Of a DNA stretch of 64,000 bases, positions 33,042 through 64,000 are shown in pieces. The position numbers and the translations under genes are program-made. The notes beneath the pieces were generated by a model. It saw only the letters and a list, made by a program, of their open reading frames with translations. It made no database searches and was not told the DNA's origin. Each line of letters opens with the position of its first letter. The first letter of the stretch is position 1. This DNA is from Bacteroidaceae bacterium (GTDB lineage: Bacteria; Bacteroidota; Bacteroidia; Bacteroidales; Bacteroidaceae): NCBI GenBank assembly GCA_024401165.1, contig JAKSLN010000001.1:1446-65445 (forward strand), given 5' to 3'.

Positions 33042-35543
33042 CTACTGAACCTTAGGATAGGCAGCAGGGGTGTAGACGAAGCGGTGCTCGGTTGTGTAGT
33101 GCTGCTTCAGGAAGAGGATCTGGAGTTTGGTAAACTCGTGGCAGTTGGTCTGTACCTTATAATCATCTCCCTTCGTTGCTGCCTCAGCCGCAATTGCATT
33201 CAACCAAAGACGGAAGGCGTTAAGCGCTTCGTTGAGACTAAAATGGTAACCGAAAACATCGTTGACACGTTCTGTGAGACCTTGCGCAACCAAACTATTC
33301 ATCAGTTGTTCGACTGTTTCTGAAGTATGTTCATCTTTTTGTACGTCACCATAAGCAAGGAACAGCAACACATCATGTAAAGTTTCTCCTTGACCCATAT
33401 ATCCGCCTTGTCCATAGTATCTGAAATCTTTCTCACCATTAACAAAGGTATTCGATTGCATCATGGTTGTTGAAAGAGGGAATCCAGACTTACTTGGCAC
33501 CAATGTTGGAGTGTGAGTAATCATACTCTCATCGTAATAGCAACTGAACATGATACTGTTGTTGGTATCACCGCCATTACCTCGCTTACCTACCGTAGCA
33601 TGGACATCTGCTCCAGTGACACCATCTGCAGCTTTTACCTCGCCACTGTGGTAGCAAGCCATTACTGTACCATTGTTGAATCCTACCAGACCACCGATGA
33701 TTTTACTCTTACCAATAACCTTGCCCACATGAGCGCAGGCAATGATAAAACTCTGATTTATACCTACAATACTTCCCGTATAGTCAGTAATTTCAGATTC
33801 ATTGACATCGCCATAGATATAGCAAGCACAGATCAAGCCCTTATTTTCGTGTGCCACCACACCACAGGCCTTCACTTCAAGCACATTCTCAAAGTTCAGT
33901 TTGTCAATAACGGCATTGTCACCTATAGTATGGAAGAAATGCTGACCTTTCAGGCGGTTGATGTAACGGTTACTACCCAGGAAGAAACCATTGAACGGAT
34001 GACTAGCATCGCCTATACCTATCCAATCCAATGAATTACTATCCTTGTTTTTCTGCATGGTGATGTCGGCATCGAGCTTGATGTACTGGTGCATGAAGTC
34101 ACGACCGTTTTTCACCTCGTAGGCAAAGGACAGAAGCTGGTCAGCAGTACAGATAGTATATGGATCATTGTCAGTACCCGTGTGACCATAGATATCCTTG
34201 ATAATATCCTTTCCATTTCCATCTTTTCCTGCTACATAAAGCCATGTGGCATCGTCCGGATTTTTTGTCTTAGTGTCACCGATAATAGTAACGATATTCT
34301 GGTCCATGCCCGTCTTAAAGGCCGGAGCTTCCTCCAGATATGTAGAGTTCTTCTTCAGACTACCCTCGTCAGGCGTATCTTCAAACTGCCATGACATATA
34401 TTCGGCACCCACAGTCATCTTTTCGTCCTTGTGGTTGAGGTTCACGTTGATGGAAGTACAGAAGCCAGGACGGAACTCAACAGATTTACCATTCGCCAAC
34501 TTCAGGATTGCAGCATATTTTTTCTCAAGACGCTGAGTCTGGTTGGGGTCGAGGGGATCCGGATATGACACGTTAAAATCCATCTTTACCTGTTCCTGCT
34601 CACCAGGAGCGACAATACCATAGAAAGTAAACGTACGGTTTGCACCCGAACCACGGTATTCGCGTGACTGCCACAGCTTCATATCCTTCTTCTGATTCCA
34701 TGAGGGAATATCTCCTCCTTTCCAGTCGAAACTATTAAGTGCAGTTTGATCGTTCTCTACGAGTGGATCTGCCTTATAACTAAGGCCATTCCACTTATAC
34801 ATCGTGGGCTGTTCATAAAGCTGCAAGTCCGTCACCTTTGTTTCTGCATCAGGGTCCTTACCCGTTGAAGAGAAGCCAGAGATGGTAACGACAACGCGCA
34901 CGCTTGCCAATGCATGGTGGAAATGGACTGTTGCAAAAGCGTCCTCATTCTGCATTTCTGTGTTGTATGTGAGCAGTAAATCCTCCTTGCGGAGTTTCTC
35001 GAGGTCGTATGCTTCGTTTCCACCTGCACCAGTGGCTGGTATGGCAGTATAGTCAATGATATCATTATCTTTGGTAAGCGTTGGGTCACCAATGCTGCCG
35101 TAATACGTCGTACCCCCTTCCTGTTTATTCCAGTCATAACCAGATGTCTTTGCATTTTTGTCATCATCATGAGGCAGGATATAGCCAATGAAGGTATGGG
35201 GTTCCGAACCGTCGCTCCAGAAGATGTCGTCCTCAGGATCCTCACGCGTCCACGACTCACCATCGGCAGAACCAGAGTAGCGAACGTCCTTATAGCTGAA
35301 TCCTTCTATAGGATGTTTGGTTCGCTGAATCTTCGTGAAGATGATCTCATCCTTGTTCCCGAACGCATACTTACCAATGGAATCGACCAATGGAGCCACG
35401 GCACGCGTGCTACTACCATTGTCTATGACGGCACGTATGCCACGTAGTGCGATGGGGTTGCAATCGTCTGGCAAAGTGTCCACTTCGTTATTGCAGGCCA
35501 CAAAGCCCAGCAAAGCAATCAGTATATAGATGTATTTCTTCAT
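33042..35543 (-). CDS. Fimbrillin-family lipoprotein fused to a GLUG-like beta-helix module (candidate pilus tip adhesin)
   Basis: Lipobox LLGFVAC|NNE, GSSTR|AVAP and VHFHHALASVRVVV. C-terminal half: HPFNGFFLGSNRYINRL, then CGVVAHENKG, GSIVGINQS and GGLVGFNNG repeats. Confidence 0.7.
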   Translation of the reverse strand: MKKYIYILIALLGFVACNNEVDTLPDDCNPIALRGIRAVIDNGSSTRAVAPLVDSIGKYAFGNKDEIIFTKIQRTKHPIEGFSYKDVRYSGSADGESWTREDPEDDIFWSDGSEPHTFIGYILPHDDDKNAKTSGYDWNKQEGGTTYYGSIGDPTLTKDNDIIDYTAIPATGAGGNEAYDLEKLRKEDLLLTYNTEMQNEDAFATVHFHHALASVRVVVTISGFSSTGKDPDAETKVTDLQLYEQPTMYKWNGLSYKADPLVENDQTALNSFDWKGGDIPSWNQKKDMKLWQSREYRGSGANRTFTFYGIVAPGEQEQVKMDFNVSYPDPLDPNQTQRLEKKYAAILKLANGKSVEFRPGFCTSINVNLNHKDEKMTVGAEYMSWQFEDTPDEGSLKKNSTYLEEAPAFKTGMDQNIVTIIGDTKTKNPDDATWLYVAGKDGNGKDIIKDIYGHTGTDNDPYTICTADQLLSFAYEVKNGRDFMHQYIKLDADITMQKNKDSNSLDWIGIGDASHPFNGFFLGSNRYINRLKGQHFFHTIGDNAVIDKLNFENVLEVKACGVVAHENKGLICACYIYGDVNESEITDYTGSIVGINQSFIIACAHVGKVIGKSKIIGGLVGFNNGTVMACYHSGEVKAADGVTGADVHATVGKRGNGGDTNNSIMFSCYYDESMITHTPTLVPSKSGFPLSTTMMQSNTFVNGEKDFRYYGQGGYMGQGETLHDVLLFLAYGDVQKDEHTSETVEQLMNSLVAQGLTERVNDVFGYHFSLNEALNAFRLWLNAIAAEAATKGDDYKVQTNCHEFTKLQILFLKQHYTTEHRFVYTPAAYPKVQ

Positions 35544-35554
35544 TTTCTCTTCTT

Positions 35555-35613
35555 ACTAAACGATTAAACGACTAAACAATTAGGTTCGTCGCCTCGGGGA
35601 GGTTGGGGAGAGG
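35555..35613. repeat. Composite intergenic element (CTAAACG-type tandem module + GGGGAGGTTGGGGAGAGG)
   Basis: ACTAAACGATTAAACGACTAAACAATTA (35555-35582), then GGGGAGGTTGGGGAGAGG (35596-35613), directly abutting the stop of the upstream gene. Confidence 0.6.
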
Positions 35614-35614
35614 A

Positions 35615-36778
35615 TCATAGTATCACCTTGACAGGATAGAGTTCCCCTTCCTGGAACTTAGTAATAGGCAGTTCCATCTCGAAGCGTCGTTCTCCATCTC
35701 GCACCCATATCTTGGCCTTCTTCACATTGCCCTCAGCATCTTTAAGTTCGCATGGGGGCACAATCATTCTAAAGTGGGTGTTGTCCACCTTGTATGCCGT
35801 GTAGACACCCGTATTAGGAACAATCTCAGTCGATGGCGTGTCGCCGAAGGCGGGGTTGGGATTGCCCGTCATAGGAACACATACTGCACGCCCCATATTA
35901 TTATCGAGAGTACTCTTCACATTATCCTTGTTTACACCGATACCAATAACCTTTCCGTTGTGCTCATAATTGCATGAGTTCTTCTCGCGATAGCCAAAGC
36001 GGCTGTTGATCTTACTCCTATCTGCATAGTAGTCACCCACCAGGACTTCTTGCTGGTCGATATTCGGCATACCTTCGAGGGTCAGGATGCTTGAGCTGCT
36101 GAATTGTGCGGCGCTCGATTCGGGATTCTCAGGATCATAGGAAGGATTCGTAGCGGTAAGTTCGAAGGTGATGCACGCCATCTTGTGCTCGAAGTTGATG
36201 TGTACATTCCAAGACCCCGTCTGCATATACTGTTGTCCCCACAGCAAGTCTGAAGCTTTGTAGTGCTCCCCCTTACGCTGATCAGCATGGAACACATGAC
36301 TGTACTGCAAGACATGGAAACCGCCCTTGGTGCCACCGCGGAAGTTCTTCTCTTCGCTCCATGTCGATGCCATATAGACATAGGGAGTCTGCTGCGCCTC
36401 ATAGAAGCTGCCTACCTGCGGGCTTCCACTATAGTTGTATGTACCACTAATATCGCAGTGATCAGCCGTATCAAGGGGCACCCAACTTCCACCTTTTCTC
36501 TTCATAAGAAAGAAGGCATCGTAGCTGTTGCCCCACGTACTCTCACCATACTCCGACGAACTAGAGTATGGGCAGATGATCTTCAAACGGATCCAGTCAC
36601 CATCCTCAAAACCAGTACCATCCAGTTTGCTGCGTGTCATGGCCGTCTCACCCTTGAAAGGCAGCACGTCAGTTGTCAGCGTGAACTCATGACTCTCCTG
36701 CTCTCTCTGGACAATCTCGTCGGAGGAGCAAGCTGCCAGAAGCAGCAACACTGTCAATATGCTTATGTATTTCCTCAT
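35615..36778 (-). CDS. Fimbrillin-family lipoprotein (normal size)
   Basis: LLLLAAC|SSDE, ETAMTR|SKLDG, INFEHKMACITFEL. Confidence 0.7.
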   Translation of the reverse strand: MRKYISILTVLLLLAACSSDEIVQREQESHEFTLTTDVLPFKGETAMTRSKLDGTGFEDGDWIRLKIICPYSSSSEYGESTWGNSYDAFFLMKRKGGSWVPLDTADHCDISGTYNYSGSPQVGSFYEAQQTPYVYMASTWSEEKNFRGGTKGGFHVLQYSHVFHADQRKGEHYKASDLLWGQQYMQTGSWNVHINFEHKMACITFELTATNPSYDPENPESSAAQFSSSSILTLEGMPNIDQQEVLVGDYYADRSKINSRFGYREKNSCNYEHNGKVIGIGVNKDNVKSTLDNNMGRAVCVPMTGNPNPAFGDTPSTEIVPNTGVYTAYKVDNTHFRMIVPPCELKDAEGNVKKAKIWVRDGERRFEMELPITKFQEGELYPVKVIL

Positions 36779-36792: not shown

Positions 36793-36851
36793 CTAAACGA
36801 CTAAACGATTTTATACGACTAAACGTCTAAACGACTCTTCCGTAGAGAGGG
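36793..36851. repeat. Intergenic CTAAACG tandem repeats + short G-rich tail
   Basis: CTAAACGACTAAACGATTTTATACGACTAAACGTCTAAACGAC (36793-36835), then GTAGAGAGGG (36842-36851). Confidence 0.6.
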
Positions 36852-36853: not shown

Positions 36854-39640
36854 TTAATTGTTCAGATACAGTATATTGTTCACACCCTGGTTTGTTGGCA
36901 ATCCTATTTTTCCGTCTGCATCTTCCGGACACGCCACCAACTGTGGATATAAGTGTGCATATCCAACGTTATCTACCGTGTAGTTCATGTGACACTGATG
37001 GCTCTCCTGGTGATAATGATATTCTGACACTCTGGCCGGAGTCGTCTGGTTGTACTGGAAGATAGCATAGTTCATGGCCTTCCAGGGAGCCAGTCCGTAG
37101 AACTCCTCCTTCTGCCTGTCGTTCAGTTTGTCGTAGGGCGTATCGTCAGCAATCATATTATCGTGCTTGGCACGCAAGATGTGCTGTCTTGCACCGCGGA
37201 TATACTCCTGTGGACGGTACTTGTTTGTTGCGGTTCCGATGGCTGTAGTCTTCTGTTCAGGCGACTTCTGGTAGAAATTGCACATGAAACGGCTCCACTC
37301 CAGCTTTACCTTTTCTCCCTGTGGTTCGAGATATGGCGTAACACCCGTAGCATAGCCACCTAACAATGCTGCACCAGTAATGTTGGACGAGGCATGCATA
37401 CAACCATACATTGTCATGTTGCTGGCTGTCTCCACCAAAGCGCCCCCTGCATCACCCTCGTGGACACATCCCACCACATAACTGATACCCTGACCAGACA
37501 GACTCTTTGCTATTGGCGAGACGGTACAGTCGGCCTTGAGGGATACGCCCACTATACGCAGGTTATGAGTTACACCGCTGGTCGTACCGCTGTTGAGCAG
37601 GGCCAGGTTATGCGTCGAACTGAGACGAAGGTCACGAATCTCGGCATCCTCAACATGGCCAAAGAGGTACTGATCTTTCATATTCACATTAGACAGCAGG
37701 TAGGTACCGCCGTCGAAATAGCCTTTGAAAGGATGTTCACTGCTATTACCGATGCTCTCCAGTTGCCAGTCATTCAGATCGATGTCATTGGTCAGCTGTA
37801 CCACCAGGTGAAGTGTCACTTGCTCATCATAGAAACTGATAGGTCCACGCACATAATCCTCGTACGAACGTGCCGACTGGTCGGAGATCTGGTGAACGTA
37901 GTGGCGGTAGAACACATAACCCTGCAACTCTGCTTGGGCCCGGGTCACCCATACAGTATCGCCGAACTCTGTGGCCAGGCTCTCCTGCGTTTTCTCTACG
38001 TCATACCACCAGTATCGCTTGCTGATCTTGTCGTCCAGGTCGGATGTAGCATCCGGATTATCGACGTTGCGCACAGCTCGCTCCAGACCCGACATCTTCT
38101 TGGCAGCCGTGCCGTTGACAAGAGCTATGAACTCCTTGAATTGTTCTGCCGTACTGATCTTAAAGATCGGATTGTAGTCGTAACTCTGTTTTGTCTCCCG
38201 AATGGCCGTATTGATGGCATCCTGATACCAACTATACGGAGTAGGATTATTCTCGGCAACGTGCTTGTCGTCAGCTTCTCCACTCACCTCTGGCTGCGTG
38301 TTCCAGTCAATACCCTCTTCTATGACAGTTACCTTCAACTGATCATAAAGGTAACCGACCTGAAAACGATAACTCTTGCCGGGCGACATTTTCAAGCCAT
38401 CAGGAAACATGGGAAGAAAATTACCAGATGCATCTTTCTCAGTTGACTTGATGTCAGAGAGCGAGAAGATGTGCTCCTTATACTCATAACCTTCCGTGCT
38501 TAAATTATGATCCCCATTATTCACATCCCTGAGTCTGATTTTGAAGCGTGTTTTGGCTGGCAGCGTGATCACCTTTCCTTGAGTATCTCCGTCACTCATG
38601 TCATAAGGAATGGTAATCAGGTAGAGCTGACCATCTACATTGGAGAAGGAAGGATGCTTGACATTGGTGGCAATATCATTGGCAGACATATTACCGTAGT
38701 TCACAATACCATCAGTATTCTGTTCGATGATGTTGAACTTCTTTGTAGTTGACAGGGTGTTGTAAAGCGTATTGGTCATGGCACGCAACGTTCCATCTTC
38801 GATGTTTACACCGGCAGGGAGACACATGCGCTTATAAACTTCCTTAACCTTATTCGCAACCTCTTTTGCCTCCTCGTCACTAAGTATATCGTTTAAATCG
38901 TTCGTGTGGCTGTCAGCATTATCCTTCCACTTGTAATCTTCCTCATTGAGACAGATCTCAGCACCAGCAAACTGATTGCCAGCATAGTATGAGAATCGCA
39001 GACGGCTGCAGAGATGGCGGAAGGTGAGTGGAATTCCCTGTGTAGGACCCGAAACGGTCACCCAGTCGGCAACGCAAAAGTCAGGATAATAGCTGCCGGC
39101 CTCACCATTGCTGATACAACCAGCCACATTGCTGCGGCTCCATGCACGGAAACGCACAGTAGCTCCAGTCTCCCAGGTCAGAGAGTCTGACTTGTCCTGA
39201 GTTTGCATAGTGCCCGTCGACCCATTCCAGTCGTCACATTTCATGCGTCCTTCAAACACCTTCCAGTCGGTACTCAGGTTGATGGAGGTACCAGGCGCAT
39301 AGGTCACAGCATAGTGATACGTACGGAAGGCTTGCTTGGATTCCCAATCGCCAGTACTTGCATCCCAATACTGACGATAGATCATCATGAGGTCACCCTC
39401 GTTGAAGCCACCTTCGTGGTTGTAGGAAGTACGCGTCTCATTGTATTCCTGTGCCATCGAAGCGTTGAAGTTCACAGCTTTCCCTATCAATGCCTGCTGT
39501 TCTGGAGACAAAGCATCGGTTCCTAAGATTTTGTCATCGGAACAGCCTGTCACAAGCAAGGCACTCAACATTATATATAATATGTAATATCGCTTCATCA
39601 TCTTTTTTCGACTCGTTGTCTTGTTGACTCGTTGACTCAT
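36854..39640 (-). CDS. Fimbrillin-family lipoprotein with C-terminal beta-helix/GLUG-like module
   Basis: LLVTGC|SDDK, YNETR|TSYN and LTFRHLCSRLRFSY. C-terminal HPFKGYFDGGTYLLSNVNM and GAALLGGYA. The start ATG overlaps the upstream stop (ATGA, 39637-39640). Confidence 0.65.
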   Translation of the reverse strand: MSQRVNKTTSRKKMMKRYYILYIMLSALLVTGCSDDKILGTDALSPEQQALIGKAVNFNASMAQEYNETRTSYNHEGGFNEGDLMMIYRQYWDASTGDWESKQAFRTYHYAVTYAPGTSINLSTDWKVFEGRMKCDDWNGSTGTMQTQDKSDSLTWETGATVRFRAWSRSNVAGCISNGEAGSYYPDFCVADWVTVSGPTQGIPLTFRHLCSRLRFSYYAGNQFAGAEICLNEEDYKWKDNADSHTNDLNDILSDEEAKEVANKVKEVYKRMCLPAGVNIEDGTLRAMTNTLYNTLSTTKKFNIIEQNTDGIVNYGNMSANDIATNVKHPSFSNVDGQLYLITIPYDMSDGDTQGKVITLPAKTRFKIRLRDVNNGDHNLSTEGYEYKEHIFSLSDIKSTEKDASGNFLPMFPDGLKMSPGKSYRFQVGYLYDQLKVTVIEEGIDWNTQPEVSGEADDKHVAENNPTPYSWYQDAINTAIRETKQSYDYNPIFKISTAEQFKEFIALVNGTAAKKMSGLERAVRNVDNPDATSDLDDKISKRYWWYDVEKTQESLATEFGDTVWVTRAQAELQGYVFYRHYVHQISDQSARSYEDYVRGPISFYDEQVTLHLVVQLTNDIDLNDWQLESIGNSSEHPFKGYFDGGTYLLSNVNMKDQYLFGHVEDAEIRDLRLSSTHNLALLNSGTTSGVTHNLRIVGVSLKADCTVSPIAKSLSGQGISYVVGCVHEGDAGGALVETASNMTMYGCMHASSNITGAALLGGYATGVTPYLEPQGEKVKLEWSRFMCNFYQKSPEQKTTAIGTATNKYRPQEYIRGARQHILRAKHDNMIADDTPYDKLNDRQKEEFYGLAPWKAMNYAIFQYNQTTPARVSEYHYHQESHQCHMNYTVDNVGYAHLYPQLVACPEDADGKIGLPTNQGVNNILYLNN

Positions 39641-45300: not shown

Positions 45301-45521
45301 AAGACATAGTCATCCTCTACACGTTCGAAGCGATTGATGTTCTCCCAATACTCCGCCTTGGCATCAGCACGTGTTGCCACCTGTGGCACCTGCGCGCTGA
45401 ACGATATCTCGTCGCCGGCATTGATGTCCACATCGATGTCGGGGACAATGCCCAGTTTGTCCGAGCATCCGGCACATACAGCCAGTAGTGTTATATATAG
45501 TATGTATCTAAATCTACTCAT
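42372..45521 (-). CDS. Fimbrillin-family lipoprotein fused to a GLUG-like beta-helix module (candidate tip adhesin, 1049 aa)
   Basis: AVCAGC|SDK, PQVATR|ADAK, LFMRHKRSRITVLL, AYVVDWEDW, then GGIAAEM, GGGIVGRAEG, GGLVNSA, GGIVGGTNK and GGIIGYSK. Confidence 0.7.
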   Translation of the reverse strand: MSRFRYILYITLLAVCAGCSDKLGIVPDIDVDINAGDEISFSAQVPQVATRADAKAEYWENINRFERVEDDYVFDVDMYEEGNATKIASATYNPTKKTVDNVTTYDDYGTLEEDGSFLYWPSNVKKYAFHAVSSNSTEKIGDDDRNGNPTGKSDQSTAEKFFKQDRIEGYGYVPGWDDALNEGAGAPVRDLDGLNYLTAKEWYAANKLWGLPDNNMSETQLVEHWKKVPLFMRHKRSRITVLLKAGEGVEREQIKYNDVLTPQNIHIDIFSYDKNNQSTTVTPLLGSYECEYEATNQFPQKETVTTACYDAIVEPHDYTEGSNMTEQKMLAINLSGMKFSFYAANDREFSSAPDAENEVVKTRYNLTEGKHLILEVTLSTDTRKILITAYVVDWEDWPFSSICDDFGQAADPEPISDKADLIEFLTNPAKNKPGNVAVIIPLNLNLNEAVTGAMINKKNMVKDASGKSPDDDGYQPTYKDGYTPKNDNEPIYPAGWDPSEYSLNMTLKLAGATITTNNRLFDKISVSGSIVNGTVVIADKDGITNPEIECAIAEENLGSIDRVTVEQGETERKATRAGLVITNRGTIHACMSSLPVYNPSENDDVWIGGIAAEMLYPTKIENGQSVPDVASQPVIDQCGVNARIDGGSKVVGGGIVGRAEGKLTNNTYNYGITLLQNADRFRNILYAKGGNQDLTTSGNEWPTKVKNPVVGGSDITNARLEEDCYNQVLDSQAELHKLVSESSYNNTVSRYRLASSFSVDDTWNLSVQDQGTGSARGNLLCELDGNEQTITLTGTENAKMLFSNIQSHVYDLVLQLDKPIVAMPKKDGETNAELLPARAPLAYAVVGDKAVLSNIKVRSSDGAFVKSTASGGLVVWAYDGATIEDCKSDVDVRIAVPEGSGNQQTYFVGGLVNSAAKATILRCTYHRQQFNETEDELAVQGSNVYYGGIVGGTNKKGVYDPSLNISDCTSWVSWQVKDELPHTAWGGIIGYSKYQNTLSDLVNATDGNCQGNWWQGPAGASSKGMASGMTEEKVIGKKNSLQPLRDTKY

Positions 45522-54012: not shown

Positions 54013-54036
54013 ATTGAGTATTGCTTTCAAATTATG

Positions 54037-58761: not shown

Positions 58762-58960
58762 GTATTGATGTTTTTTCTATTATATTCACTGGCAGCTGGG
58801 GCTGCGGTGGTTTCTTGTTGATGCGGTTTCAGTCTGTATCCGTACCTGGAGGTCTTTGTTACTGCTGCGGAAACTGAAATTTTCTGCTGCTGGATTTCTT
58901 TTTTCCGCGCAACACGGAACTTCAGATCGCCGTGCGTGGTTTCGTCCTTGGCTTGTCTTT

Positions 58961-59019
58961 TCACCTTCTCACCCCTCTCCCAGTCCTTTTGGGAAGGACT
59001 AGGAGTGGAGAGATGGTGA
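58961..59019. repeat. Long imperfect inverted repeat (about 60-nt stem-loop) just after the stop of the 807-aa gene
   Basis: Core stem AGTCCTT / AAGGACT (58982-58988 / 58994-59000), extended by TCACC / GGTGA and C-rich/G-rich arms (CACCCCTCTCC / GGAGTGGAGAG). No T-run follows on the sense (minus) strand. Confidence 0.55.
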
Positions 59020-59038
59020 AGGGGTTTCGCGTGTTCCT

Positions 59039-61462
59039 TTAGTTCTCGAGATCGATTTTTATATTCTCACCATAGACATTTACCCATGGAGCCAATGTAC
59101 AAGTGATGTTATCAATTCCCTTCTTGGTAATCTTGAAAGTATATGTGTAAGAATGATTCGGATACCAACGGGTGATTGCTGCTGCAGTCTTCTGGGCATC
59201 GGTACTTGAAGATGTTGCAATATTAGGATGATCAGGATCACTATAAGATGCGTCACTTCCTTCCTGCTTGATTGATGTAGCATAGATCTTGCTTAAATCC
59301 TCAATTACGTAATACTGATTATTGTCGCTGGTAACAATTGTAACGCCGACATAGTTACCAGCACCTGTACCGCGACTCAAAAGCTGTGGTACGACTGCAT
59401 AGGTGAAAGGCTTTGTTTTTACGTCGTTACTAGTCCAATAATCGGTACTTGAGGGGGACGTAATTAGAACATCTGTGGTTGCCAAAGAAGTCGTTGTTGG
59501 TGTAACAAGACCAGAACCCATCTTAACCTGACCTTCAGTATAGAACTTTGTCAAATATACCTTTGCATTCGAAAGATTCACATGGTCACCTGCATCTGCT
59601 GCAGTTGTCTCAAGGATGATGTTGATGTTACTCATCATGTGAAGCTCGGTAATCTTGATTTCGTTCTCGGTAGAACCAATAGCCTTATAGATGCTAGTTG
59701 TATAACCTTCAGTTGTATTGTTTGCACTATTTGCGTCTGGGTTATATTTGAATAATTGAGCACCTCCAGTTGGGTTTTTCATTGGGGCACCCCAATGATA
59801 ATCATGATTGGCTTGGTCACCTGAGACTATTTCAAAGTAATCATCTATACCATCAGCTCCATCTCCAGTTGCTCCTTTGATCTCGGTTGTTAGACTCTTC
59901 TTTACTGTTCTAAAATGATAGAAAGTTTTGTTGTCCTCAAAGAACCAATTTGTTGTGAATTTACCATCACCTGTTGAAGAACCTGTAGGCTTTGTTAAGG
60001 TTGCTGGGGTAGTGTTATAGTTACCTTTCCAATTATAGAATTCCTTTGAATCTGCAGTAGGTGATGTCAAATTAGTATAGATGTTTCCATCACCATCAGC
60101 AAGACGATAAAGATTTATATCATCACAAGTTCCTGTGGCGGAAGATATGTCCAAAGTAATATAGGAGTTGTACAACTGCTTATCGGCAGCATATACCTCT
60201 GTCCAAGGCTGAAGAGTAGCTGTGACCTTTTGGATACCTGTCTTATTGACTGTGATATTGAGGTTATAGTTTTTCTGCTGCTCCATCTTAATTTTATTAT
60301 CAGCAGTAGTCGTCACTCCTGTCTTACCATCCAATGCAGCAAAAATCATTTGTTGGTCAACGTAATAGGTGTTATCATCAATAGTGAAAGAAATCACATT
60401 TGTGGTTGAAGTCTTACCAAACTCATAATCTGGGAGCATCTGAACGGTTGCTTTGTAGCACGCTCTTGAAACATCATTGTTTGATTCGTCTTTGACAGTA
60501 GTGTTTGTAATTGAAGGTTTTGCAACAATGATGCCTGTTGTCTTTGTTCCCCATGTTCCTTCTGTCAAATCGAGATCTGCTTGAACATTCATACCATTGA
60601 ATGCAATACCTACAGAACTAAGGTTGAAGTCATGAGTTTCCTCATTGTCATCTGCATTATTGAAACCATTTCCACTGATTATGGTCAATGTAATACGTGA
60701 AAGGGAATGCGTGAATACGAGATGGCCTTTGTCAAAGTGACCAGCATCTGTAGCTTCTGCTCCATCTGGCAGAACGAACTGCATACGTCCATTACCATGG
60801 GTAGTGTTTCCTGTTTCTGCTGGATAACCAACAGGATCAGTATAACTCCATACATAGCGACCATCGGTACCATTCTTGCGAATGTTACGGCTATAGGTAA
60901 GGTCTTCTCCTGTAAGAGTTGCATCGACCTGCTCATGATCACCATCAGAATCTTTGTGGCTTACACTCCAAGTAATAGTGTTGGTAGCATTAGTACCCCA
61001 CTTGGCACTTGATGAACCATAACCAGCTGTAAGGCTACTTTCTTGGAGCTTGCTATCTGACGTAATAGACTTACCGGGCACTGCTACTGCATATACTGAA
61101 AGGAAAGCATCACGACCGAAGCAATCATCCCAATACAATTTATACAGATCACCAATAGTAATATCAGAATAGGTAGAATTATCGGATGTGTTAGTTTTTT
61201 CTGTAGAAGCTGTAACCTTTGTTCTTGCATATCTTTTTTCCGTACCATTTTCGCCTTTTTGGCTCATGATACGCAGGACTACATCTGTTGAAAATGTAGT
61301 ATGGAGTCCTGCACGAGTTACAGGCAATGCACTTCCATCGCTCATTGAGAAGCTGATCATCTCCTTGCCACTGGGGTCGATGGGAGAAGTGATGTCGGTG
61401 TTGTCCGAACAGCTAGCTGCAGTCAAAGCTGCTACTGCCAGCAATAAGTTTGTCTTCTTCAT
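59039..61462 (-). CDS. Double-module fimbrillin-family lipoprotein (807 aa)
   Basis: ALTAASC|SDN, ALPVTR|AGLH, VFTHSLSRITLTII ... TATLQPWTEVYA; ELHMMSNINIILE ... CTLAPWVNVYG. Confidence 0.7.
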   Translation of the reverse strand: MKKTNLLLAVAALTAASCSDNTDITSPIDPSGKEMISFSMSDGSALPVTRAGLHTTFSTDVVLRIMSQKGENGTEKRYARTKVTASTEKTNTSDNSTYSDITIGDLYKLYWDDCFGRDAFLSVYAVAVPGKSITSDSKLQESSLTAGYGSSSAKWGTNATNTITWSVSHKDSDGDHEQVDATLTGEDLTYSRNIRKNGTDGRYVWSYTDPVGYPAETGNTTHGNGRMQFVLPDGAEATDAGHFDKGHLVFTHSLSRITLTIISGNGFNNADDNEETHDFNLSSVGIAFNGMNVQADLDLTEGTWGTKTTGIIVAKPSITNTTVKDESNNDVSRACYKATVQMLPDYEFGKTSTTNVISFTIDDNTYYVDQQMIFAALDGKTGVTTTADNKIKMEQQKNYNLNITVNKTGIQKVTATLQPWTEVYAADKQLYNSYITLDISSATGTCDDINLYRLADGDGNIYTNLTSPTADSKEFYNWKGNYNTTPATLTKPTGSSTGDGKFTTNWFFEDNKTFYHFRTVKKSLTTEIKGATGDGADGIDDYFEIVSGDQANHDYHWGAPMKNPTGGAQLFKYNPDANSANNTTEGYTTSIYKAIGSTENEIKITELHMMSNINIILETTAADAGDHVNLSNAKVYLTKFYTEGQVKMGSGLVTPTTTSLATTDVLITSPSSTDYWTSNDVKTKPFTYAVVPQLLSRGTGAGNYVGVTIVTSDNNQYYVIEDLSKIYATSIKQEGSDASYSDPDHPNIATSSSTDAQKTAAAITRWYPNHSYTYTFKITKKGIDNITCTLAPWVNVYGENIKIDLEN

Positions 61463-61503
61463 ATCTTATGTTTTTTTATTATCAATAATATATTGCGTTT
61501 CTA

Positions 61504-62814
61504 TTACTGTTCCAAATCGGTGGAGAGGCTACCGGTGACATCAACCCAGGGGGTGAGGGTTGCCGTGAAGGTTATCTCGAGTTTGTCTTCAATACCGGAG
61601 ATGATGAGGTAGTAGGTGTGGATGCAGCCAGAGATCCAGTTGAACTTATCTTGGATATCGCCGTTCTCTAACTCCAACTTCACGGGGATATTCGTGAAGG
61701 TCTTATACGCGGAGCTGTCAACAGCTTTCTTGTAGAGCTCGAAGCTGACATAGAGCTGTACGCCTTCCTGGGGTATCTGCTTGATGCCACCGGGGCATTG
61801 CAGCCAGTATGCAGATGAGCGGCTCTGGTGCTTGGAGAGGTCGTTGCCTTCAACACTCTTTCCGCCATTGAAGGTGAGGAGAGGGGTGTGGGTTGTAGGA
61901 AGCTGAACCTTGGTAAGTCCAGTGAAACCAGAGGTGCCAGAACCAACGTACCAACTGAAATTGGGATCAGTAGCGACAGATGGCGCAGTACCTGTGGCGG
62001 TGTAACCTGTTGCTGCCTTGACGAAGTCGGTAGAGCAGGCGCTGACAACCAGATCCTTGATATAGAGGGGATTGGCCGTTGCCCAGGGCGAGGTACAATA
62101 CACCGCGAAGCGTACCTTGGAATTGACATGGTGGAAGGGTAGCGAGACATAGCGGTTGAGCGTTTGGCTAACCTTATTTATCTCGTTATCTGTTCCACTG
62201 ACGAACATGTCGTAGTCGCGACCATCCTCGTTGCGCTGCACCTGTGCTACAATGTAGGGCTCGGCATTTGTAGGCGTCACTACACCATTCGTGACTGTCT
62301 GCATATAGTAAGGTGCTATGATAGTCAGCGTCTTGTCACCTATCGTAACTGTATGCCCATCAGAGGGATAGGGTGCTACGGCATGGAATCGGTATGGGAA
62401 GCTGGCATAGTCCCAGTACTTCTCCGACTGTCCGCTGACGGTCGTATAGTCCCAGAAGGGACGTTCAGTACCATCCCAGGCAGTGCCGGAGGTCTTGTAC
62501 TCCACCTTATAGCCGTTCATGACCGTCTGCTGAGTGGTAAAACCATGGGCTTTGAAGGTGGAAACGGCAAACCCCGTTGTTAGACTCTGTGAAGCGCGGG
62601 TGACGTGTTCCTTCTCGTTCTCCTGCATCTGGCAAGTGAAGGTAAGGGCATCCACGCTCGTGGGTTCGATCTCGGGAATGTCCTCCAGCGTGGTACTGCT
62701 CGTACATGACATACACATCGGCACGGCGAAGCCTGCCAACGTCATGAAGACATTGACAAGTTTTCGCGTGCGTGTAATATTAAATAATGTACGTGCGTGC
62801 ATAGCCATGGACAT
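61504..62814 (-). CDS. Fimbrillin-family lipoprotein (436 aa)
   Basis: FAVPMCMSC|TSS, EHVTR|ASQS, LPFHHVNSKVRFAV, TATLTPWVDVTG. Confidence 0.7.
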   Translation of the reverse strand: MSMAMHARTLFNITRTRKLVNVFMTLAGFAVPMCMSCTSSTTLEDIPEIEPTSVDALTFTCQMQENEKEHVTRASQSLTTGFAVSTFKAHGFTTQQTVMNGYKVEYKTSGTAWDGTERPFWDYTTVSGQSEKYWDYASFPYRFHAVAPYPSDGHTVTIGDKTLTIIAPYYMQTVTNGVVTPTNAEPYIVAQVQRNEDGRDYDMFVSGTDNEINKVSQTLNRYVSLPFHHVNSKVRFAVYCTSPWATANPLYIKDLVVSACSTDFVKAATGYTATGTAPSVATDPNFSWYVGSGTSGFTGLTKVQLPTTHTPLLTFNGGKSVEGNDLSKHQSRSSAYWLQCPGGIKQIPQEGVQLYVSFELYKKAVDSSAYKTFTNIPVKLELENGDIQDKFNWISGCIHTYYLIISGIEDKLEITFTATLTPWVDVTGSLSTDLEQ

Positions 62815-62831
62815 TTTCAGTATGTACCGAA

Positions 62832-64000
62832 TTATTGGTAAGTGGTAGTTTCAGGAGAGATGATGTGCTCTGAAGTACTCTCGGTGTAATCCACAATTGT
62901 AGCTCCATCGAAAACGATGGGGAAGAGTGACTTCTTTGTACTGGGGGTAGGATCTGTAGGATCGTAGGCAACAGTGGGTGTAGGATCGGTAGAACCCGTA
63001 GAGTTCTTGGTAATCTTGAAGGTGTAGATGTAACGAGTGTTAGCCTGCCATGCCGTGATGTATTCCGTTGTACCACCAGTTGTTTGAGAAGCAGGTACGA
63101 ATACGGTTGCATTGTGTACGGTTGTTACCTCCTTGTTGTCATCAGCAATGATGCGATAGGTAACATGGAAGGTGAAGCCGGTGGCTGAATTCGTAGGCTG
63201 AGCAACGGGATAGTAAATGGTGGGTGACCAAGCGTAGTTCTGTTGTGCAGTGGTTGCTGCTACCTCAGGGATTACGTAGTGAGTTGTTGTAGCAGACTGA
63301 GTGTTGTCAATCTTTGTCCAGTTCTTATTTTCAACAGAACCGAAACCATCAGGAACTTTTGCAGTTGAATACTTTGTTGCATCTGTAGTAGGAGCATGGA
63401 ACATCAGGTTGTCCTGAGTTGTCTTGGCCATGACTGTTGCAGTTGCATCAGTAGGATAAGCAAACTCAAATGAGGGAACGCCATCGGCAAAGTTAACTGT
63501 TGCACCAGAAGATGTATAATATGTACCTTTGGTGTATGATGGAGAACCAACAGTAGCAGGCGTAGCTTGAATACCAGTCTTCAGTTCAGTAGATGCATTA
63601 CCAAAATTACCATTGTCAGCAGAAAGGTCAACAATCTCAACCTTGTAACCAGGAACATCCTCATAGAAACGGATGAAGACCTGTGCGCCCAGATGCTTGA
63701 ATGGGATAGTTACGTCTGCTAAAGCAGAATTGGTTGCCTTATATCCACCCACCATGAATTCGGCCAGCGAACGGTCGAATGTACTATAATTGGAGTTTAC
63801 CGGATAATCATAACCATCTCGGATGACATTCGCAGCAAGTTTCATAGTTGCGCTACCGTCAGTAGCCATTGTTGTCTCTACACCAGTCTTCTGATATGGA
63901 GCATAGCAGTAGAAATACGTGTTGGTGTATGCCAAATCCCAGTAGCGAAGGTACTGATTTTGGTGAGCTGACATGTAAGCATTATCGGTCTTCTTATAGA
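62832..64000 (-). CDS. Fimbrillin-family protein, 5' end outside the window (partial)
   Basis: The reading frame stays open upstream of the ORF-track Met at 63974 to the window edge (...YKKTDNAYMSAHQ). IPFKHLGAQVFIRF motif. The stop lies 17 nt before the next gene. Confidence 0.6.
   Translation of the reverse strand, partial: YKKTDNAYMSAHQNQYLRYWDLAYTNTYFYCYAPYQKTGVETTMATDGSATMKLAANVIRDGYDYPVNSNYSTFDRSLAEFMVGGYKATNSALADVTIPFKHLGAQVFIRFYEDVPGYKVEIVDLSADNGNFGNASTELKTGIQATPATVGSPSYTKGTYYTSSGATVNFADGVPSFEFAYPTDATATVMAKTTQDNLMFHAPTTDATKYSTAKVPDGFGSVENKNWTKIDNTQSATTTHYVIPEVAATTAQQNYAWSPTIYYPVAQPTNSATGFTFHVTYRIIADDNKEVTTVHNATVFVPASQTTGGTTEYITAWQANTRYIYTFKITKNSTGSTDPTPTVAYDPTDPTPSTKKSLFPIVFDGATIVDYTESTSEHIISPETTTYQ

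What the first reader, a model, noticed from the sequence alone, without database searches (positions are those of the whole stretch)
33042..64000. A super-operon of more than 31 kb holding 12 fimbrillin-family (type V pilus) lipoproteins, most 2-3 times normal size
Directly visible:
- Thirteen co-directional ORFs total about 10,000 codons.
- Junctions are very tight: a 1-nt overlap (TAATG), a 4-nt overlap (ATGA), and gaps of 5, 6-24, 12, 17 and 41 nt. Only five gaps reach 56-277 nt.
- All 11 complete non-T9SS ORFs carry a lipobox Cys, a T-R-[A/S/T] site roughly 25-45 residues later, an F/Y-x-H-x-x-[S/A]-x-[I/V]-x-[V/F] block and a C-terminal [D/P/G/E]-W block.

Established knowledge: type V pilins (FimA/Mfa1 class) are lipoprotein precursors. 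They mature by Arg-specific cleavage a few tens of residues after the lipidated Cys, then polymerise by strand exchange.

Why it stands out:
- The canonical fim and mfa operons have about 5-7 genes of mostly 300-550 aa. Here eight components are 634-1049 aa.
- The locus is visibly more AT-rich than the flanking core genes (not computed).

Inference: this is an expanded, probably horizontally acquired, pilus/adhesin system. Its architecture is not explained by known models. It could be one stalk with many alternative tips, several pili, or a non-pilus surface array.
Basis: partly seen in the sequence, partly recalled or inferred. Interest (0 to 1): 0.8.

Follow-up and report, generated by a model that had tools for sequence, protein, structure and literature searches.

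The report
Giant multi-adhesin type V pilus operon
This is most of a very large (about 35 kb, 16-gene) pilus operon from an uncultured herbivore-gut Bacteroidales bacterium; its twelve oversized "pilin" lipoproteins are explained by duplicated pilin modules and by pilins fused to adhesin-like domains, so it is an unusual variant of a known system, not a new kind.

Summary
There are 13 co-directional minus-strand ORFs totalling 10,086 codons. The junctions are exactly as described. A lipobox Cys is followed 29-38 residues later by T-R-[A/S/T] in all 11 complete lipoproteins.

All 12 lipoproteins can be tied to the type V pilin superfamily:
- Pfam Mfa_like_1 at or above threshold for 7.
- Paralogy or homologs that hit the model for g01, g02 and g05.
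- A sub-threshold hit for g11.
- A predicted fold for g10 and g13.

The excess size has ordinary explanations:
- Four proteins (g03, g04, g05, g07) are tandem two-module pilins.
- g13 is a pilin fused to a beta-helix domain resembling that of IgA1 proteases. g11 aligns with the start of that helix. g10 has an unassigned C-terminal domain, and g09 shows only faint GLUG hints. This is the known tip-pilin architecture.
- g08 probably has an insertion.

g06 is a repeat protein ending in a widespread C-terminal sorting-type domain. T9SS models do not recognise this domain. g06 is absent from one syntenic relative.

Relatives show that the operon starts about 4.7 kb beyond the window with a DUF3575 outer-membrane protein and an uncleaved lipoprotein. 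Similar long operons occur in several herbivore-gut genome assemblies and in cultured Prevotella sp. MA2016.

Lower GC3 is real, but horizontal acquisition is not shown.

Verdict: new variant of a known kind, moderate interest.

The parts
62832..64000 (-). g01, 3' part of a roughly 519-aa normal-size pilin (stalk candidate); runs off the window end
   Evidence: The frame stays open to base 63998. BLASTP E 6e-49 to the L003 461-aa protein, which hits Pfam Mfa_like_1 at 33.3 bits. E 1e-28 to the L011 354-aa Mfa_like_1 protein. The full-length ortholog in L009 has LASC plus NITRA.
61504..62814 (-). g02, a 432-436 aa pilin (stalk or adaptor candidate) with the C-terminal tail ...TPWVDVTGSLSTDLEQ
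   Evidence: TRA lies at residue 72, after the MSC lipobox. E 4e-42 to the L011 385-aa protein, which carries Mfa_like_1. The L009 ortholog hits Mfa_like_1 at 24.4 bits, below the cutoff. No direct Pfam hit.
59039..61462 (-). g03, an 807-aa two-module (tandem) pilin; lowest GC3 in the operon (0.34)
   Evidence: Mfa_like_1 at 47.9 bits in 2 stretches. Module 1 versus module 2 hhalign gives 98.4%, E 4.7e-15. Of 210 homologs, one is named 'fimbrillin family protein [Prevotella sp. MA2016]'.
58960..59020 (-). Strong RNA hairpin about 20 nt after the g03 stop, at the start of the only long gap (277 nt)
   Evidence: -38.3 kcal/mol, z = -4.3. A gap of the same size after the g03 ortholog in a 40%-identical relative is also highly structured, z = -5.9.
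56341..58761 (-). g04, an 806-aa two-module pilin
   Evidence: Mfa_like_1 at 72.4 bits in 2 stretches. BLASTP E 3e-60 to g03.
54037..56328 (-). g05, a 763-aa two-module pilin
   Evidence: No Pfam hit. BLASTP E 2e-20 to g04, 2e-18 to g07 and 7e-11 to g03 over both modules. The L003 ortholog hits Mfa_like_1 at 135 bits.
49780..54030 (-). g06, a 1416-aa non-lipoprotein: signal peptide read by eye, three roughly 290-aa repeats plus a degenerate fourth, then a roughly 230-aa conserved C-terminal module
   Evidence: The repeats are 34-42% identical, E 1e-31 to 1e-53. No Pfam or NCBIfam family. Same size and position in L003 and L009. Absent from the syntenic operon in L014/L015.
49783..50043 (-). 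g06 C-terminal sorting-type domain (last 87 aa)
   Evidence: It matches 380 protein clusters, and in the 150 best hits listed the match ends at the extreme C-terminus. The passengers are BspA-type LRR, PARCEL and Listeria-Bacteroides repeats. Por_Secre_tail hits 0 of 51 in Pfam and 1 of 51 weakly in NCBIfam. A profile hits the C-terminus of PDB 8bbl at E 1.4e-9.
47513..49780 (-). g07, a 755-aa two-module pilin
   Evidence: Mfa_like_1 at 114.7 bits in 2 stretches. The second covers profile positions 11-246 of 246 at residues 467-741.
45527..47431 (-). g08, a 634-aa pilin; a long acidic/lysine-rich stretch (read by eye in the translation) precedes the matched C-terminal domain and is probably an insertion
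   Evidence: Mfa_like_1 at 31.3 bits, residues 411-613. Lipobox VTAC plus TRA at residue 57.
42372..45521 (-). g09, a 1049-aa pilin module (about residues 1-396) plus a roughly 650-aa C-terminal domain with GLUG-like motifs (tip-adhesin candidate)
   Evidence: Mfa_like_1 at 27.0 bits (equal to the cutoff), residues 118-394. Pfam Glug only at E 0.62. No significant hhalign match to the g13 family beyond the leader.
39637..42315 (-). g10, an 892-aa protein: divergent pilin module (about 70-500, with a helical-hairpin insert) plus an unassigned C-terminal domain (about 560-892)
   Evidence: No Pfam hit. AlphaFold2 model pLDDT 80. All top Foldseek PDB hits are type V pilins (BF2867, BACUNI_00621, Mfa3, Mfa4), E 2e-4, prob 0.99, but TM only 0.34-0.43. 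774 homologs; 100% identical to NCBI MCQ2222175.1.
36854..39640 (-). g11, a 928-aa protein (probably 914): pilin module plus a C-terminal domain that aligns with the start of the g13 beta-helix
   Evidence: Mfa_like_1 at 20.5 bits, below the cutoff of 27. hhalign of g11 residues 628-751 against g13-family residues 508-634 gives 71%, E 3.8e-5.
35615..36778 (-). g12, a 387-aa normal-size pilin
   Evidence: Mfa_like_1 at 38.9 bits; LPAM_1. TRS at residue 48.
33042..35543 (-). g13, an 833-aa protein: pilin module (residues about 30-383), a disordered linker, then a right-handed beta-helix plus helical cap (about 430-833); tip-adhesin candidate and last gene of the operon
   Evidence: Mfa_like_1 at 35.7 bits. 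AlphaFold2 pLDDT 85.5. Foldseek: type V pilins at E 1.4e-9, TM 0.55-0.61; IgA1 proteases 7jgj/7uvl/6xjb/7uvk at prob 0.87-0.99, E 0.01. 647 homologs.

Best explanation
The region is the downstream 31 kb of a single type V (FimA/Mfa1-class) pilus operon of about 35.5 kb and 16 genes. The source is an uncultured herbivore-gut Bacteroidales bacterium (NCBI metagenome-assembled genome 'Bacteroidaceae bacterium', locus tag MJZ35).

Shown:
- All 12 lipoproteins belong to, or are homologous to members of, the type V pilin superfamily.
- Every complete one carries a lipobox Cys and a conserved T-R-[A/S/T] site.
- g03, g04, g05 and g07 are internal tandem duplications of the pilin module. Only the first module keeps the Arg site.
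- g13 is a pilin module fused to a large beta-helix of the IgA1-protease/GLUG type. g11 has a related C-terminal region. g10 has a pilin-like N-terminal half plus another domain.
- In the four relatives fetched the operon is headed by a DUF3575/OmpA-like outer-membrane protein. Next comes a highly conserved lipoprotein without the Arg site.

Inferred mechanism:
1. Each precursor is exported by Sec, lipidated and moved to the cell surface.
2. An Arg-specific surface protease (gingipain/clostripain class) cuts after the T-R. This removes the N-terminal anchor strand and opens a groove.
3. The C-terminal donor strand of the next subunit fills that groove (protease-mediated strand exchange).
4. 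Subunits ending in the short W...(I/L)DLE-type tail (g01 and its upstream paralog, g02, the two-module pilins) would build the stalk or adaptor. The two-module proteins would act as pre-linked double-length stalk units.
5. The fusion proteins (g09, g10, g11, g13) have a bulky domain where a terminal donor strand would be. They can therefore only cap filaments, giving one stalk system several alternative tip adhesins.
6. The upstream uncleaved lipoprotein would be the anchor and terminator.
7. g06 would be an optional accessory surface protein delivered by its own C-terminal sorting domain, as Mfa5 is in P. gingivalis.
For: Family membership:
- Pfam Mfa_like_1 at or above the cutoff for g03, g04, g07, g08, g09, g12 and g13.
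- Paralogy of g05 to g03, g04 and g07.
- g01 and g02 are linked to Mfa_like_1-positive homologs.
- Predicted folds of g10 and g13 match solved type V pilins, including Mfa2, Mfa3 and Mfa4.
- hhalign of the g13 family against the g03 family gives 94%, E 8.6e-8.

Processing site and duplication:
- Arg site in 11 of 11.
- Tandem duplication at 98.4%, E 4.7e-15, and no TR[AST] at the module junction in any of the 65 sequences.
- Beta-helix match to IgA1 proteases; g11 aligns with the start of that helix.

Operon structure:
- Tight junctions, and no Bacteroidetes -7 motif TAnnTTTG in any internal gap of 40 nt or more.
- The full operon, with the DUF3575 protein, the uncleaved lipoprotein and a TTTG...TATCTTTG promoter-like site, is seen in a near-identical strain.
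- The same gene order is conserved at 37-63% identity in other genome assemblies and in part in cultured Prevotella sp. MA2016.

Literature for the model:
- PMC8512630: lipoprotein precursors, Arg46/Arg49 cleavage, anchors lacking the cleavage site, Mfa5 dependent on T9SS.
- PMC13655056: stalk and base pilins have donor strands, tip pilins lack them, growth is from the base.
Against: - No direct evidence of cleavage, polymerisation or filaments.
- No anchor-type pilin and no protease gene in the window. The anchor role of the upstream lipoprotein rests on position, conservation and absence of the Arg site only. It has no Pfam or PDB match, and one ortholog has only a weak DUF5119 hit.
- g01, g02, g05 and g10 have no direct Pfam hit, and g11 is below threshold.
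- The g10 fold match has low TM-scores (0.34-0.43).
- The C-terminal domain of g09 is unassigned. The Pfam Glug motif is sub-threshold everywhere (E 0.13 and 0.62).
- Donor-strand assignments are read from sequence tails, not modelled.
- The hairpin after g03 may split the operon into differently expressed parts.
- The g06 sorting domain is not recognised by T9SS models.
Confidence: 0.62

Rival explanations
1. A non-filamentous surface array. The pilin-fold lipoproteins are displayed, or shed on outer-membrane vesicles, as monomeric adhesins. The Arg site serves to release or activate them, not to polymerise them.
For: - The fusion proteins and two-module proteins are atypical for stalk subunits.
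- Nothing in the sequence proves donor-strand exchange.
- Fimbria-like lipoproteins with non-pilus roles exist, for example the vesicle-targeted PG1881 (title and highlights of PMC11225709, listed).
- A review notes that antisera to Bacteroides pilin-like proteins once failed to reveal typical fimbriae (PMC12632263).
Against: - The T-R-[A/S/T] site sits at the same distance as the FimA/Mfa1 cleavage sites in 11 of 11 proteins.
- The C-terminal W...DLE tails are conserved across 65 homologs.
- An uncleaved lipoprotein sits at the operon head, as expected for an anchor.
- The tip-like and stalk-like division fits the pilus model.
Confidence: 0.2
2. The locus encodes two or more separate pili or transcription units: for example DUF3575 through g03 as one highly expressed unit, and g04 through g13 as a second. 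It would then not be one stalk with alternative tips.
For: - A 277-nt gap with a -38 kcal/mol hairpin lies right after g03.
- A structured gap of the same size occupies the same position in a 40%-identical relative.
- Four paralogous two-module pilins could be stalks of different filaments.
- Five gaps of 56-277 nt exist.
Against: - No TAnnTTTG promoter motif in any internal gap of 40 nt or more.
- The hairpin has no U-tract.
- The gap is only 57 nt in L003.
- Only one anchor candidate and one DUF3575 gene are present per operon.
- Gene order is conserved as a block across species.
Confidence: 0.25
3. The operon is a recently horizontally acquired island.
For: - GC3 is 0.50 against 0.65 in the flanking genes, p = 3e-4.
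- The operon sits in different neighbourhoods in the four relatives fetched: CinA/MFS, GH127, ATP synthase, and GT4/EamA.
- Type V pilus clusters in Bacteroides are reported to be often flanked by mobility genes (bioRxiv 10.1101/2024.11.15.621889).
Against: - No integrase or transposase gene borders the visible 3' end. The neighbours are MFS, FMN_bind and arabinofuranosidase genes. No tRNA scan was run.
- In the near relative the 5' end abuts CinA and CobD.
- The relatives compared are distant, so ordinary rearrangement can explain the differing neighbourhoods.
- Lower GC3 could also reflect expression level or selection on variable surface-protein genes. Two flank genes are even more AT-rich.
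Confidence: 0.3

Closest known systems
Porphyromonas gingivalis mfa1-5 and fimA-E type V pilus operons
   Same: - Lipoprotein precursors with an Arg processing site about 30-35 residues after the lipidated Cys.
- The pilin double beta-sandwich fold.
- A division into donor-strand-bearing and tip-type subunits.
- An embedded large non-pilin accessory protein with its own C-terminal sorting domain (g06, compare Mfa5).
- A single-strand operon.
   Different: - 16 genes and about 35 kb instead of 5 genes.
- 13 Arg-site pilin genes in the full operon.
- Four tandem two-module pilins.
- Four pilin-fusion proteins of 833-1049 aa.
- A DUF3575/OmpA-like outer-membrane gene and a conserved uncleaved lipoprotein at the head, instead of the anchor following the stalk gene.
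- g06 has beta-helix-like repeats and no vWA domain, and T9SS models do not recognise its tail.
Bacteroides type V pilus loci and their tip pilins with C-terminal ligand-binding domains (structures such as BACOVA_04982/4eps, BVU_2522/4qb7; the DGR-diversified tip pilins BfrT/BthT)
   Same: - Membership of the Mfa_like_1/FimA superfamily.
- The 'pilin module plus extra C-terminal binding domain' tip design, including three-domain hybrids.
- Modular and redundant operons.
   Different: - Here the added domain is a roughly 400-aa beta-helix of the IgA1-protease/GLUG type, not a C-type lectin head.
- Several such fusions sit in one operon.
- B. fragilis 638R averages about 4 pilin genes per operon: 93 genes in 22 operons (bioRxiv 10.1101/2024.11.15.621889).
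Streptococcus/Gemella IgA1 protease N-terminal beta-helix (GLUG-motif domain; PDB 6xjb, 7jgj, 7uvk)
   Same: The predicted right-handed beta-helix of g13 residues about 430-720, with GGLVG-type turns. Foldseek prob 0.87-0.99.
   Different: - No M26 metalloprotease domain.
- Pfam Glug is only at E 0.13.
- The resemblance concerns the scaffold or binding domain only, and no catalytic function is implied.
T9SS type A C-terminal domains (TIGR04183 / PF18962)
   Same: - The g06 tail is about 85 aa long, lies at the extreme C-terminus, and is shared by hundreds of otherwise unrelated surface-protein passengers.
- It carries an IYDxxGRxxxxLQKGxNIV...K motif resembling the last strands of such domains.
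- It shows weak similarity to the tail of rumen arabinanase 4kca.
   Different: - No HMM hit for g06 or its L003 ortholog.
- Only 1 of 51 relatives gives a marginal TIGR04183 hit.
- The tail is preceded by a further conserved module of about 150 aa (GTxCLPF...AGTP...AFRAY) that is in no library.

Membership tests
Type V pilin superfamily (FimA/Mfa1; Pfam PF13149 Mfa_like_1) | Lipoprotein signal peptide with a lipobox Cys | tested here: met
   A Cys within a lipobox-like context at residues 17-37 in all 11 complete proteins. The g01 ortholog has LASC. g02 has an atypical box (PMCMSC).
Type V pilin superfamily (FimA/Mfa1; Pfam PF13149 Mfa_like_1) | Arg-specific processing site a few tens of residues after the Cys | tested here: met
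   T-R-[A/S/T] lies 29-38 residues after the Cys in 11 of 11, compared with Arg46 in FimA and Arg49 in Mfa1 (PMC8512630). Actual cleavage cannot be tested here.
Type V pilin superfamily (FimA/Mfa1; Pfam PF13149 Mfa_like_1) | Significant match to the family HMM at the curated cutoff (27 bits) | tested here: inconclusive
   Met by 7 of 12: g03, g04, g07, g08, g12, g13, and g09 exactly at 27.0. g11 scores 20.5 bits. g01, g02, g05 and g10 have no hit. These four are linked through paralogs, homologs or fold.
Type V pilin superfamily (FimA/Mfa1; Pfam PF13149 Mfa_like_1) | Two-domain beta-sandwich pilin fold | tested here: met
   Tested for two proteins. g13: Foldseek E 1.4e-9, TM 0.55-0.61 to 4k4k and 3ufi, plus Mfa2, Mfa3 and Mfa4. 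g10: E 2e-4, prob 0.99, but TM 0.34-0.43.
Type V pilin superfamily (FimA/Mfa1; Pfam PF13149 Mfa_like_1) | Polymerisation by C-terminal donor-strand exchange | not testable with these tools
   Only conserved C-terminal tails (W...I/L-D-L-E) were seen. No multimer modelling or experiment was possible.
Complete type V pilus operon (stalk + anchor + tip) | An anchor pilin that keeps its lipid because it lacks the Arg site | tested here: inconclusive
   None is in the window, since all 11 have the site. In the relatives the second gene encodes a conserved lipoprotein without T-R-[A/S/T] near the N-terminus. It has no Pfam or PDB match, and one ortholog has only a weak DUF5119 hit.
Complete type V pilus operon (stalk + anchor + tip) | [quoted passage not shown] | tested here: met
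   g13 model: pilin module, linker, then a roughly 400-aa beta-helix. g10 model: pilin-like half plus a second domain. g11 aligns with the start of the g13 helix. The architecture is as described in PMC12632263.
T9SS type A cargo (g06) | C-terminal domain matching TIGR04183 / PF18962 | tested here: not met
   No hit at E<=5 (Pfam) or E<=10 (NCBIfam) for the last 117 aa of g06 or of its L003 ortholog. Among proteins sharing the domain, 0 of 51 hit in Pfam and 1 of 51 in NCBIfam at E 0.008.
T9SS type A cargo (g06) | A modular domain at the extreme C-terminus, shared by diverse secreted or surface passengers that have Sec signal peptides | tested here: met
   380 clusters match, and in the 150 best hits listed the match ends at the protein's last residues. 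The passengers are LRR/BspA, PARCEL and Listeria-Bacteroides repeats. The g06 N-terminus reads as a signal peptide...ASVAWA/EAV (by eye).
GLUG-motif beta-helix (Pfam PF07581; IgA1 protease N-terminal domain) | Match to the Glug motif HMM | tested here: not met
   E 0.13 for g13 and 0.62 for g09, with bit scores of 13.2 and 11.0 against a cutoff of 20.5.
GLUG-motif beta-helix (Pfam PF07581; IgA1 protease N-terminal domain) | Right-handed beta-helix fold similar to that of IgA1 proteases | tested here: inconclusive
   Foldseek prob 0.87-0.99 but E 0.01-0.02 and low TM for 7jgj, 7uvl, 6xjb and 7uvk, in a whole-protein search dominated by the pilin half. The DSSP pattern of short regular strands at residues 520-670 fits a beta-helix.

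The most novel reading that the evidence does not exclude
This may be a distinct class of type V pilus system in herbivore-gut Prevotellaceae and relatives.
- It would have a dedicated outer-membrane assembly or anchoring module: a DUF3575/OmpA-like barrel plus the highly conserved CIEPPLKLP lipoprotein.
- Its stalks would be built from covalently duplicated two-module pilins.
- It would carry a repertoire of four or more interchangeable beta-helix tip adhesins, plus a separately secreted repeat protein.
- Such a 'multi-tool' fibre would serve attachment to plant particles or other microbes.
- If the DUF3575 pair proves to be the missing surface-assembly machinery for type V pili, that would address an open question in the field.
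Probability: 0.2. Interest if true: 0.7.

Novelty: new variant of a known kind. Interest (0 to 1): 0.45.

Why it matters
Type V pili are the main adhesive fibres of Bacteroidales. What they bind in gut species, and how they are assembled at the surface, remains largely unknown (PMC12632263).

This locus and its relatives pack 13 Arg-site pilin genes into one operon. They include tandem-module subunits and several pilin-adhesin fusions. They offer three things:
- A natural test of whether one stalk can carry alternative tips.
- A test of whether duplicated pilins act as double-length stalk units.
- Candidate assembly and anchor components (the DUF3575 protein and the conserved second-gene lipoprotein) that co-occur in all four relatives examined.

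A cultured strain, Prevotella sp. MA2016, carries a related operon, so the questions are experimentally approachable. The pilin-like proteins are at most labelled 'fimbrillin family protein', and g10 and g13 relatives are 'hypothetical protein'. Searches of the held literature found no description of such operons.

Tried and rejected
Family and structure searches that gave nothing:
- NCBIfam gave no hit for any of the 13 proteins.
- Sequence searches of PDB with g07 and g13 gave nothing, and with g06 only noise.
- A profile of the second-gene lipoprotein found nothing in PDB.
- hhalign of the g10 family against the g13 and g03 families aligned only the leader and T-R-A region. Membership of g10 therefore rests on the predicted fold.
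- hhalign of the g03-family profile against single sequences of g02 and the g01 ortholog was not significant. The same holds for the g13-family profile against g09.
- Pfam Glug and both T9SS tail models stayed below threshold.

Attempts to reach the source contig:
- Exact-sequence look-ups of window proteins returned only single-gene records of GCA_024500515.1. One start-codon variant of g02 was not on record.
- The upstream end of the source contig itself (71.7 kb, NCBI) could therefore not be read. It was inferred from a near-identical strain.
The source species is thus not among those representative genomes.

Regulation:
- Phase-variable (invertible) promoter: the 988-nt upstream region is identical in two samples, and its inverted repeats are imperfect, so there is no evidence for one.
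- The sigma-70 promoter/terminator scan is not informative for Bacteroidota. I scanned for TAnnTTTG instead.

Literature:
- Searches for DUF3575, DUF5119, 8BBL and rumen fimbrillins gave nothing relevant to such operons.
- The 2016 Cell paper on type V pilin structures is not held.

Practical limit: loci L002 and L003 never appeared in the Python sandbox.

Full report
OBSERVATION

The window holds 13 co-directional minus-strand ORFs from 33042 to its end. I number them g01 to g13 in transcription order. g01 (62832-64000) is open to the window edge.
- Total length is 10,086 codons.
- Every one of the 11 complete lipoproteins has a lipobox-type Cys and a T-R-[A/S/T] tripeptide 29-38 residues later. 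By my estimate such a tripeptide would fall in that span by chance in roughly 1% of proteins.
- The F/Y-x-H block is strict in 8 and a near variant in g05, g09 and g10.
- The x-W block ends the pilin module. In g09, g10, g11 and g13 that is mid-protein, not C-terminal.
- Nine proteins, not eight, are 634-1049 aa.
- The locus is more AT-rich than its flank: GC 0.47 against 0.53, and GC3 0.50 against 0.65, p = 3e-4.

WHAT THE PROTEINS ARE

Pfam Mfa_like_1 (PF13149, cutoff 27 bits) gives these scores:

| Protein | Bits | Note |
|---|---|---|
| g07 | 114.7 | two stretches |
| g04 | 72.4 | two stretches |
| g03 | 47.9 | two stretches |
| g12 | 38.9 | |
| g13 | 35.7 | |
| g08 | 31.3 | |
| g09 | 27.0 | equal to the cutoff |
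| g11 | 20.5 | below the cutoff |

g01, g02, g05 and g10 have no direct hit, even at E<=5. They are tied to the family in other ways.
- g05 is a clear paralog of g03, g04 and g07 (E 7e-11 to 2e-20). Its L003 ortholog scores 135 bits.
- g01 matches an L003 protein that scores 33 bits (E 6e-49) and an Mfa_like_1 protein of Prevotella sp. MA2016.
- g02 matches another MA2016 Mfa_like_1 protein (E 4e-42).
- g10 needed a structure. The AlphaFold2 model (83-sequence alignment, pLDDT 80) has only type V pilins among its significant Foldseek hits: BF2867, BACUNI_00621, Mfa3 and Mfa4. These have E 2e-4 and prob 0.99, but TM is only 0.34-0.43 because of inserts.
- The g13 model (pLDDT 85.5) matches the same structures better (E 1.4e-9, TM 0.55-0.61), including Mfa2, Mfa3 and Mfa4.
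- Profile comparison links the g13 and g03 families (94%, E 8.6e-8).

All twelve are therefore type V pilin-superfamily proteins, with varying strength of evidence. NCBIfam and direct PDB sequence searches were silent.

WHY THEY ARE SO LARGE

1. Tandem duplication.
   - In the g03 family the first and second halves align at 98.4% probability, E 4.7e-15.
   - In g07 the second Pfam stretch covers nearly the whole model.
   - The junction never carries a T-R-[A/S/T] site in the 65 sequences examined. The N-terminus carries it in 43 of 65 by a strict pattern.
   - g03, g04, g05 and g07 are thus two-module pilins in which only module 1 can be opened by cleavage.
2. C-terminal fusions.
   - The g13 pilin module ends at about residue 383. 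A low-confidence linker follows, then a regular beta-helix and a helical cap.
   - That half matches IgA1 proteases (prob 0.87-0.99, E about 0.01).
   - The Pfam GLUG motif is only a faint hint (E 0.13).
   - g11 aligns with the start of this helix (71%, E 3.8e-5).
   - g09 has GLUG-like motifs only (E 0.62).
   - The g10 C-terminal domain is unassigned.
[quoted passage not shown] Three-domain hybrid tip pilins are described for Bacteroides (bioRxiv 10.1101/2024.11.15.621889).
3. g08 matches the Pfam model only from residue 411 onward. The acidic/lysine-rich stretch before it, read by eye in the translation, is probably an insertion.

g06

This is not a lipoprotein.
- It has three repeats of about 290 aa (34-42% identical) plus a degenerate fourth.
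- Its last 87 residues match 380 protein clusters. In the 150 best hits listed the match ends at the extreme C-terminus.
- The passengers of those proteins are BspA-type LRR, PARCEL and Listeria-Bacteroides repeats.
- That is how a sorting domain behaves, but T9SS models do not recognise it. Among its relatives, 0 of 51 hit in Pfam and 1 of 51 hit marginally in NCBIfam.
- A profile of the tail hits the C-terminus of the PDB 8bbl hexosaminidase (E 1.4e-9), and weakly that of a rumen arabinanase.
- g06 is present at the same position in L003 and L009. It is absent from an otherwise collinear operon in GCA_045598885.1, so it is accessory.
- Its position and separate secretion recall Mfa5 (PMC8512630).

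EXTENT, SOURCE AND RELATIVES

- g10 is 100% identical to MCQ2222175.1 (locus tag MJZ35_00130) of a 'Bacteroidaceae bacterium' metagenome-assembled genome, on a 71.7-kb contig. Gene counting places the window at that contig's start.
- A near-identical strain (ENA ERZ27247114, 101-kb contig) shows the whole operon. In order it reads: CinA; a 990-nt gap containing a TTTG...TATCTTTG promoter-like site; DUF3575/OmpA-like protein (460 aa); lipoprotein (435 aa); g01 paralog (446 aa); g01 (519 aa); g02; g03 through g13; and finally a convergent MFS gene. That is 16 genes over about 35.5 kb.
- The 435-aa lipoprotein (mature N-terminus CIEPPLKLPAQE) lacks the Arg site. At 49-73% identity across four loci it is better conserved than g03, whose relatives in L002 and L003 are only 37-41% identical. 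I take it as the anchor or assembly candidate, by inference only.
- Collinear operons occur in a horse-faeces assembly (L003), in GCA_045598885.1, and in part in cultured Prevotella sp. MA2016.
- g13 and g10 homologs include proteins of 'Candidatus Minthosoma equi' and 'Candidatus Minthousia equi'.
- The homolog searches returned 647 proteins for g13, 210 for g03 and 774 for g10.

OPERON STRUCTURE

No Bacteroidetes -7 motif (TAnnTTTG) lies in any internal gap of 40 nt or more. The one long gap begins with a -38 kcal/mol hairpin (z = -4.3) just after g03. A differently sequenced but equally structured gap (z = -5.9) follows the g03 ortholog in a 40%-identical relative. I read this as attenuation or processing that lets the first six genes be expressed more highly than the rest. 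This is an inference.

MECHANISM

The published model is protease-mediated strand exchange (PMC8512630, PMC13655056, PMC12632263).
- Lipidated precursors reach the surface.
- An Arg-specific gingipain or clostripain removes the anchor strand.
- The next subunit's C-terminal donor strand fills the groove.
- Tips lack donor strands, and anchors lack the cleavage site.

Applied here, the roles would be as follows.
- g01 (plus its paralog), g02 and the two-module pilins end in short conserved W...DLE-type tails. They are stalk or adaptor candidates.
- g09, g10, g11 and g13 are tip candidates.
- The upstream uncleaved lipoprotein is the anchor candidate.

A non-polymerising adhesin array and several separate pili remain possible.

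HORIZONTAL ACQUISITION

The GC3 difference and the four different neighbourhoods are compatible with acquisition. No integrase or transposase gene borders the operon on the side I could see; I ran no tRNA scan. The relatives are too distant for synteny to be decisive, and two flank genes are even more AT-rich. I rate acquisition at 0.3.

NOVELTY

The kind is known: a type V pilus locus. The variant is unusual.
- It has 13 Arg-site pilin genes in one operon. P. gingivalis has 5 genes per operon (PMC8512630), and B. fragilis 638R has about 4 (93 genes in 22 operons, bioRxiv 10.1101/2024.11.15.621889).
- It has tandem-module pilins.
- It has multiple beta-helix fusions.
- It has a conserved DUF3575-plus-lipoprotein head.

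Searches of the held literature found no description of such operons. That library is incomplete. I score interest at 0.45.

Noticed in passing
window 58960-59020 (minus strand), in the 277-nt gap 58762-59038: A strong hairpin (-38.3 kcal/mol, z = -4.3, no U-tract) lies about 20 nt after the g03 stop. A structured gap of the same size (z = -5.9, unrelated sequence) follows the g03 ortholog in L015, but not in L003, where the gap is 57 nt. It may be an attenuator or a processing or stabilising element separating a highly expressed 5' part of the operon.
   Followed up: partly
window 35557-35577 and 36794-36832 (minus strand); also 15029-15041 (+): A short repeat, GTTTAGTCGTTTA (tandem 8-nt units CGTTTAGT), occurs five times in the g11-g12 and g12-g13 gaps just upstream of the g12 and g13 starts, and once elsewhere. 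That is 6 matches against 0.05 expected. C-rich mini-hairpins (CCCTCCCC...GGGGAGGG) sit at the start of the g07-g08 gap, and similar C-rich stretches at the start of the g12-g13 gap. Function unknown. The corresponding junctions in L014 are too short (0-10 nt) to hold it.
   Followed up: partly
window 49783-50480 (the g06 C-terminal roughly 230 aa): The g06 tail belongs to a larger conserved C-terminal module: GTxCLPF...AGTP...AFRAY...TGI...IYDxxGRxxxxLQKGxNIVKxSNGKTxKVxVK. It is shared by hundreds of LRR/PARCEL/repeat surface proteins, is covered by no Pfam or NCBIfam model, and also sits at the C-terminus of the solved hexosaminidase 8bbl. It may be an undescribed sorting or attachment module, or a divergent T9SS signal.
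   Followed up: partly
L009 2921-5680 (about 1.5-4.3 kb beyond the window end in the source genome): In all four relatives examined the operon starts with a DUF3575 protein; the L009 copy has an OmpA-like N-terminal half (weak Pfam hit, read by eye). Next comes a very conserved lipoprotein (CIEPPLKLPAQE...) with no family assignment. Only four papers in the held library mention DUF3575, and none studies it. This is a candidate assembly or anchor module for type V pili.
   Followed up: partly
window 222-1961 (minus strand): This gene encodes a VapE-like/primase C-terminal (PriCT-2)/DUF3874 protein, typical of Bacteroidales mobile elements. It lies at the very start of the contig, 31 kb from the pilus operon, so it probably does not bear on the operon's origin.
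   Followed up: no
window 2824-3990 (minus strand) and 12415-13458 (+): Two strongly AT-rich genes sit among GC-rich housekeeping genes. One is a 388-aa protein with no Pfam hit (GC 0.37). The other is an Acyl_transf_3 acyltransferase (GC 0.31) inserted between mannitol-dehydrogenase-like and altronate-dehydratase genes. They look like small foreign insertions, and they show that low GC is not unique to the pilus locus.
   Followed up: no
window 7909-9564 (minus strand): The listed 551-aa ORF has no Pfam hit and an odd codon-position profile (GC1 0.74, GC3 0.56). Overlapping plus-strand ORFs (8077-9024, 9034-9927) may be the real genes.
   Followed up: no
L014/L015 (GCA_045598885.1, JAZRVB010000139.1): An otherwise collinear 15-gene operon lacks the g06 gene and carries an extra 811-aa two-module pilin between the g01-like and g02-like genes. 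The pilin and accessory content of these operons therefore varies between species.
   Followed up: partly
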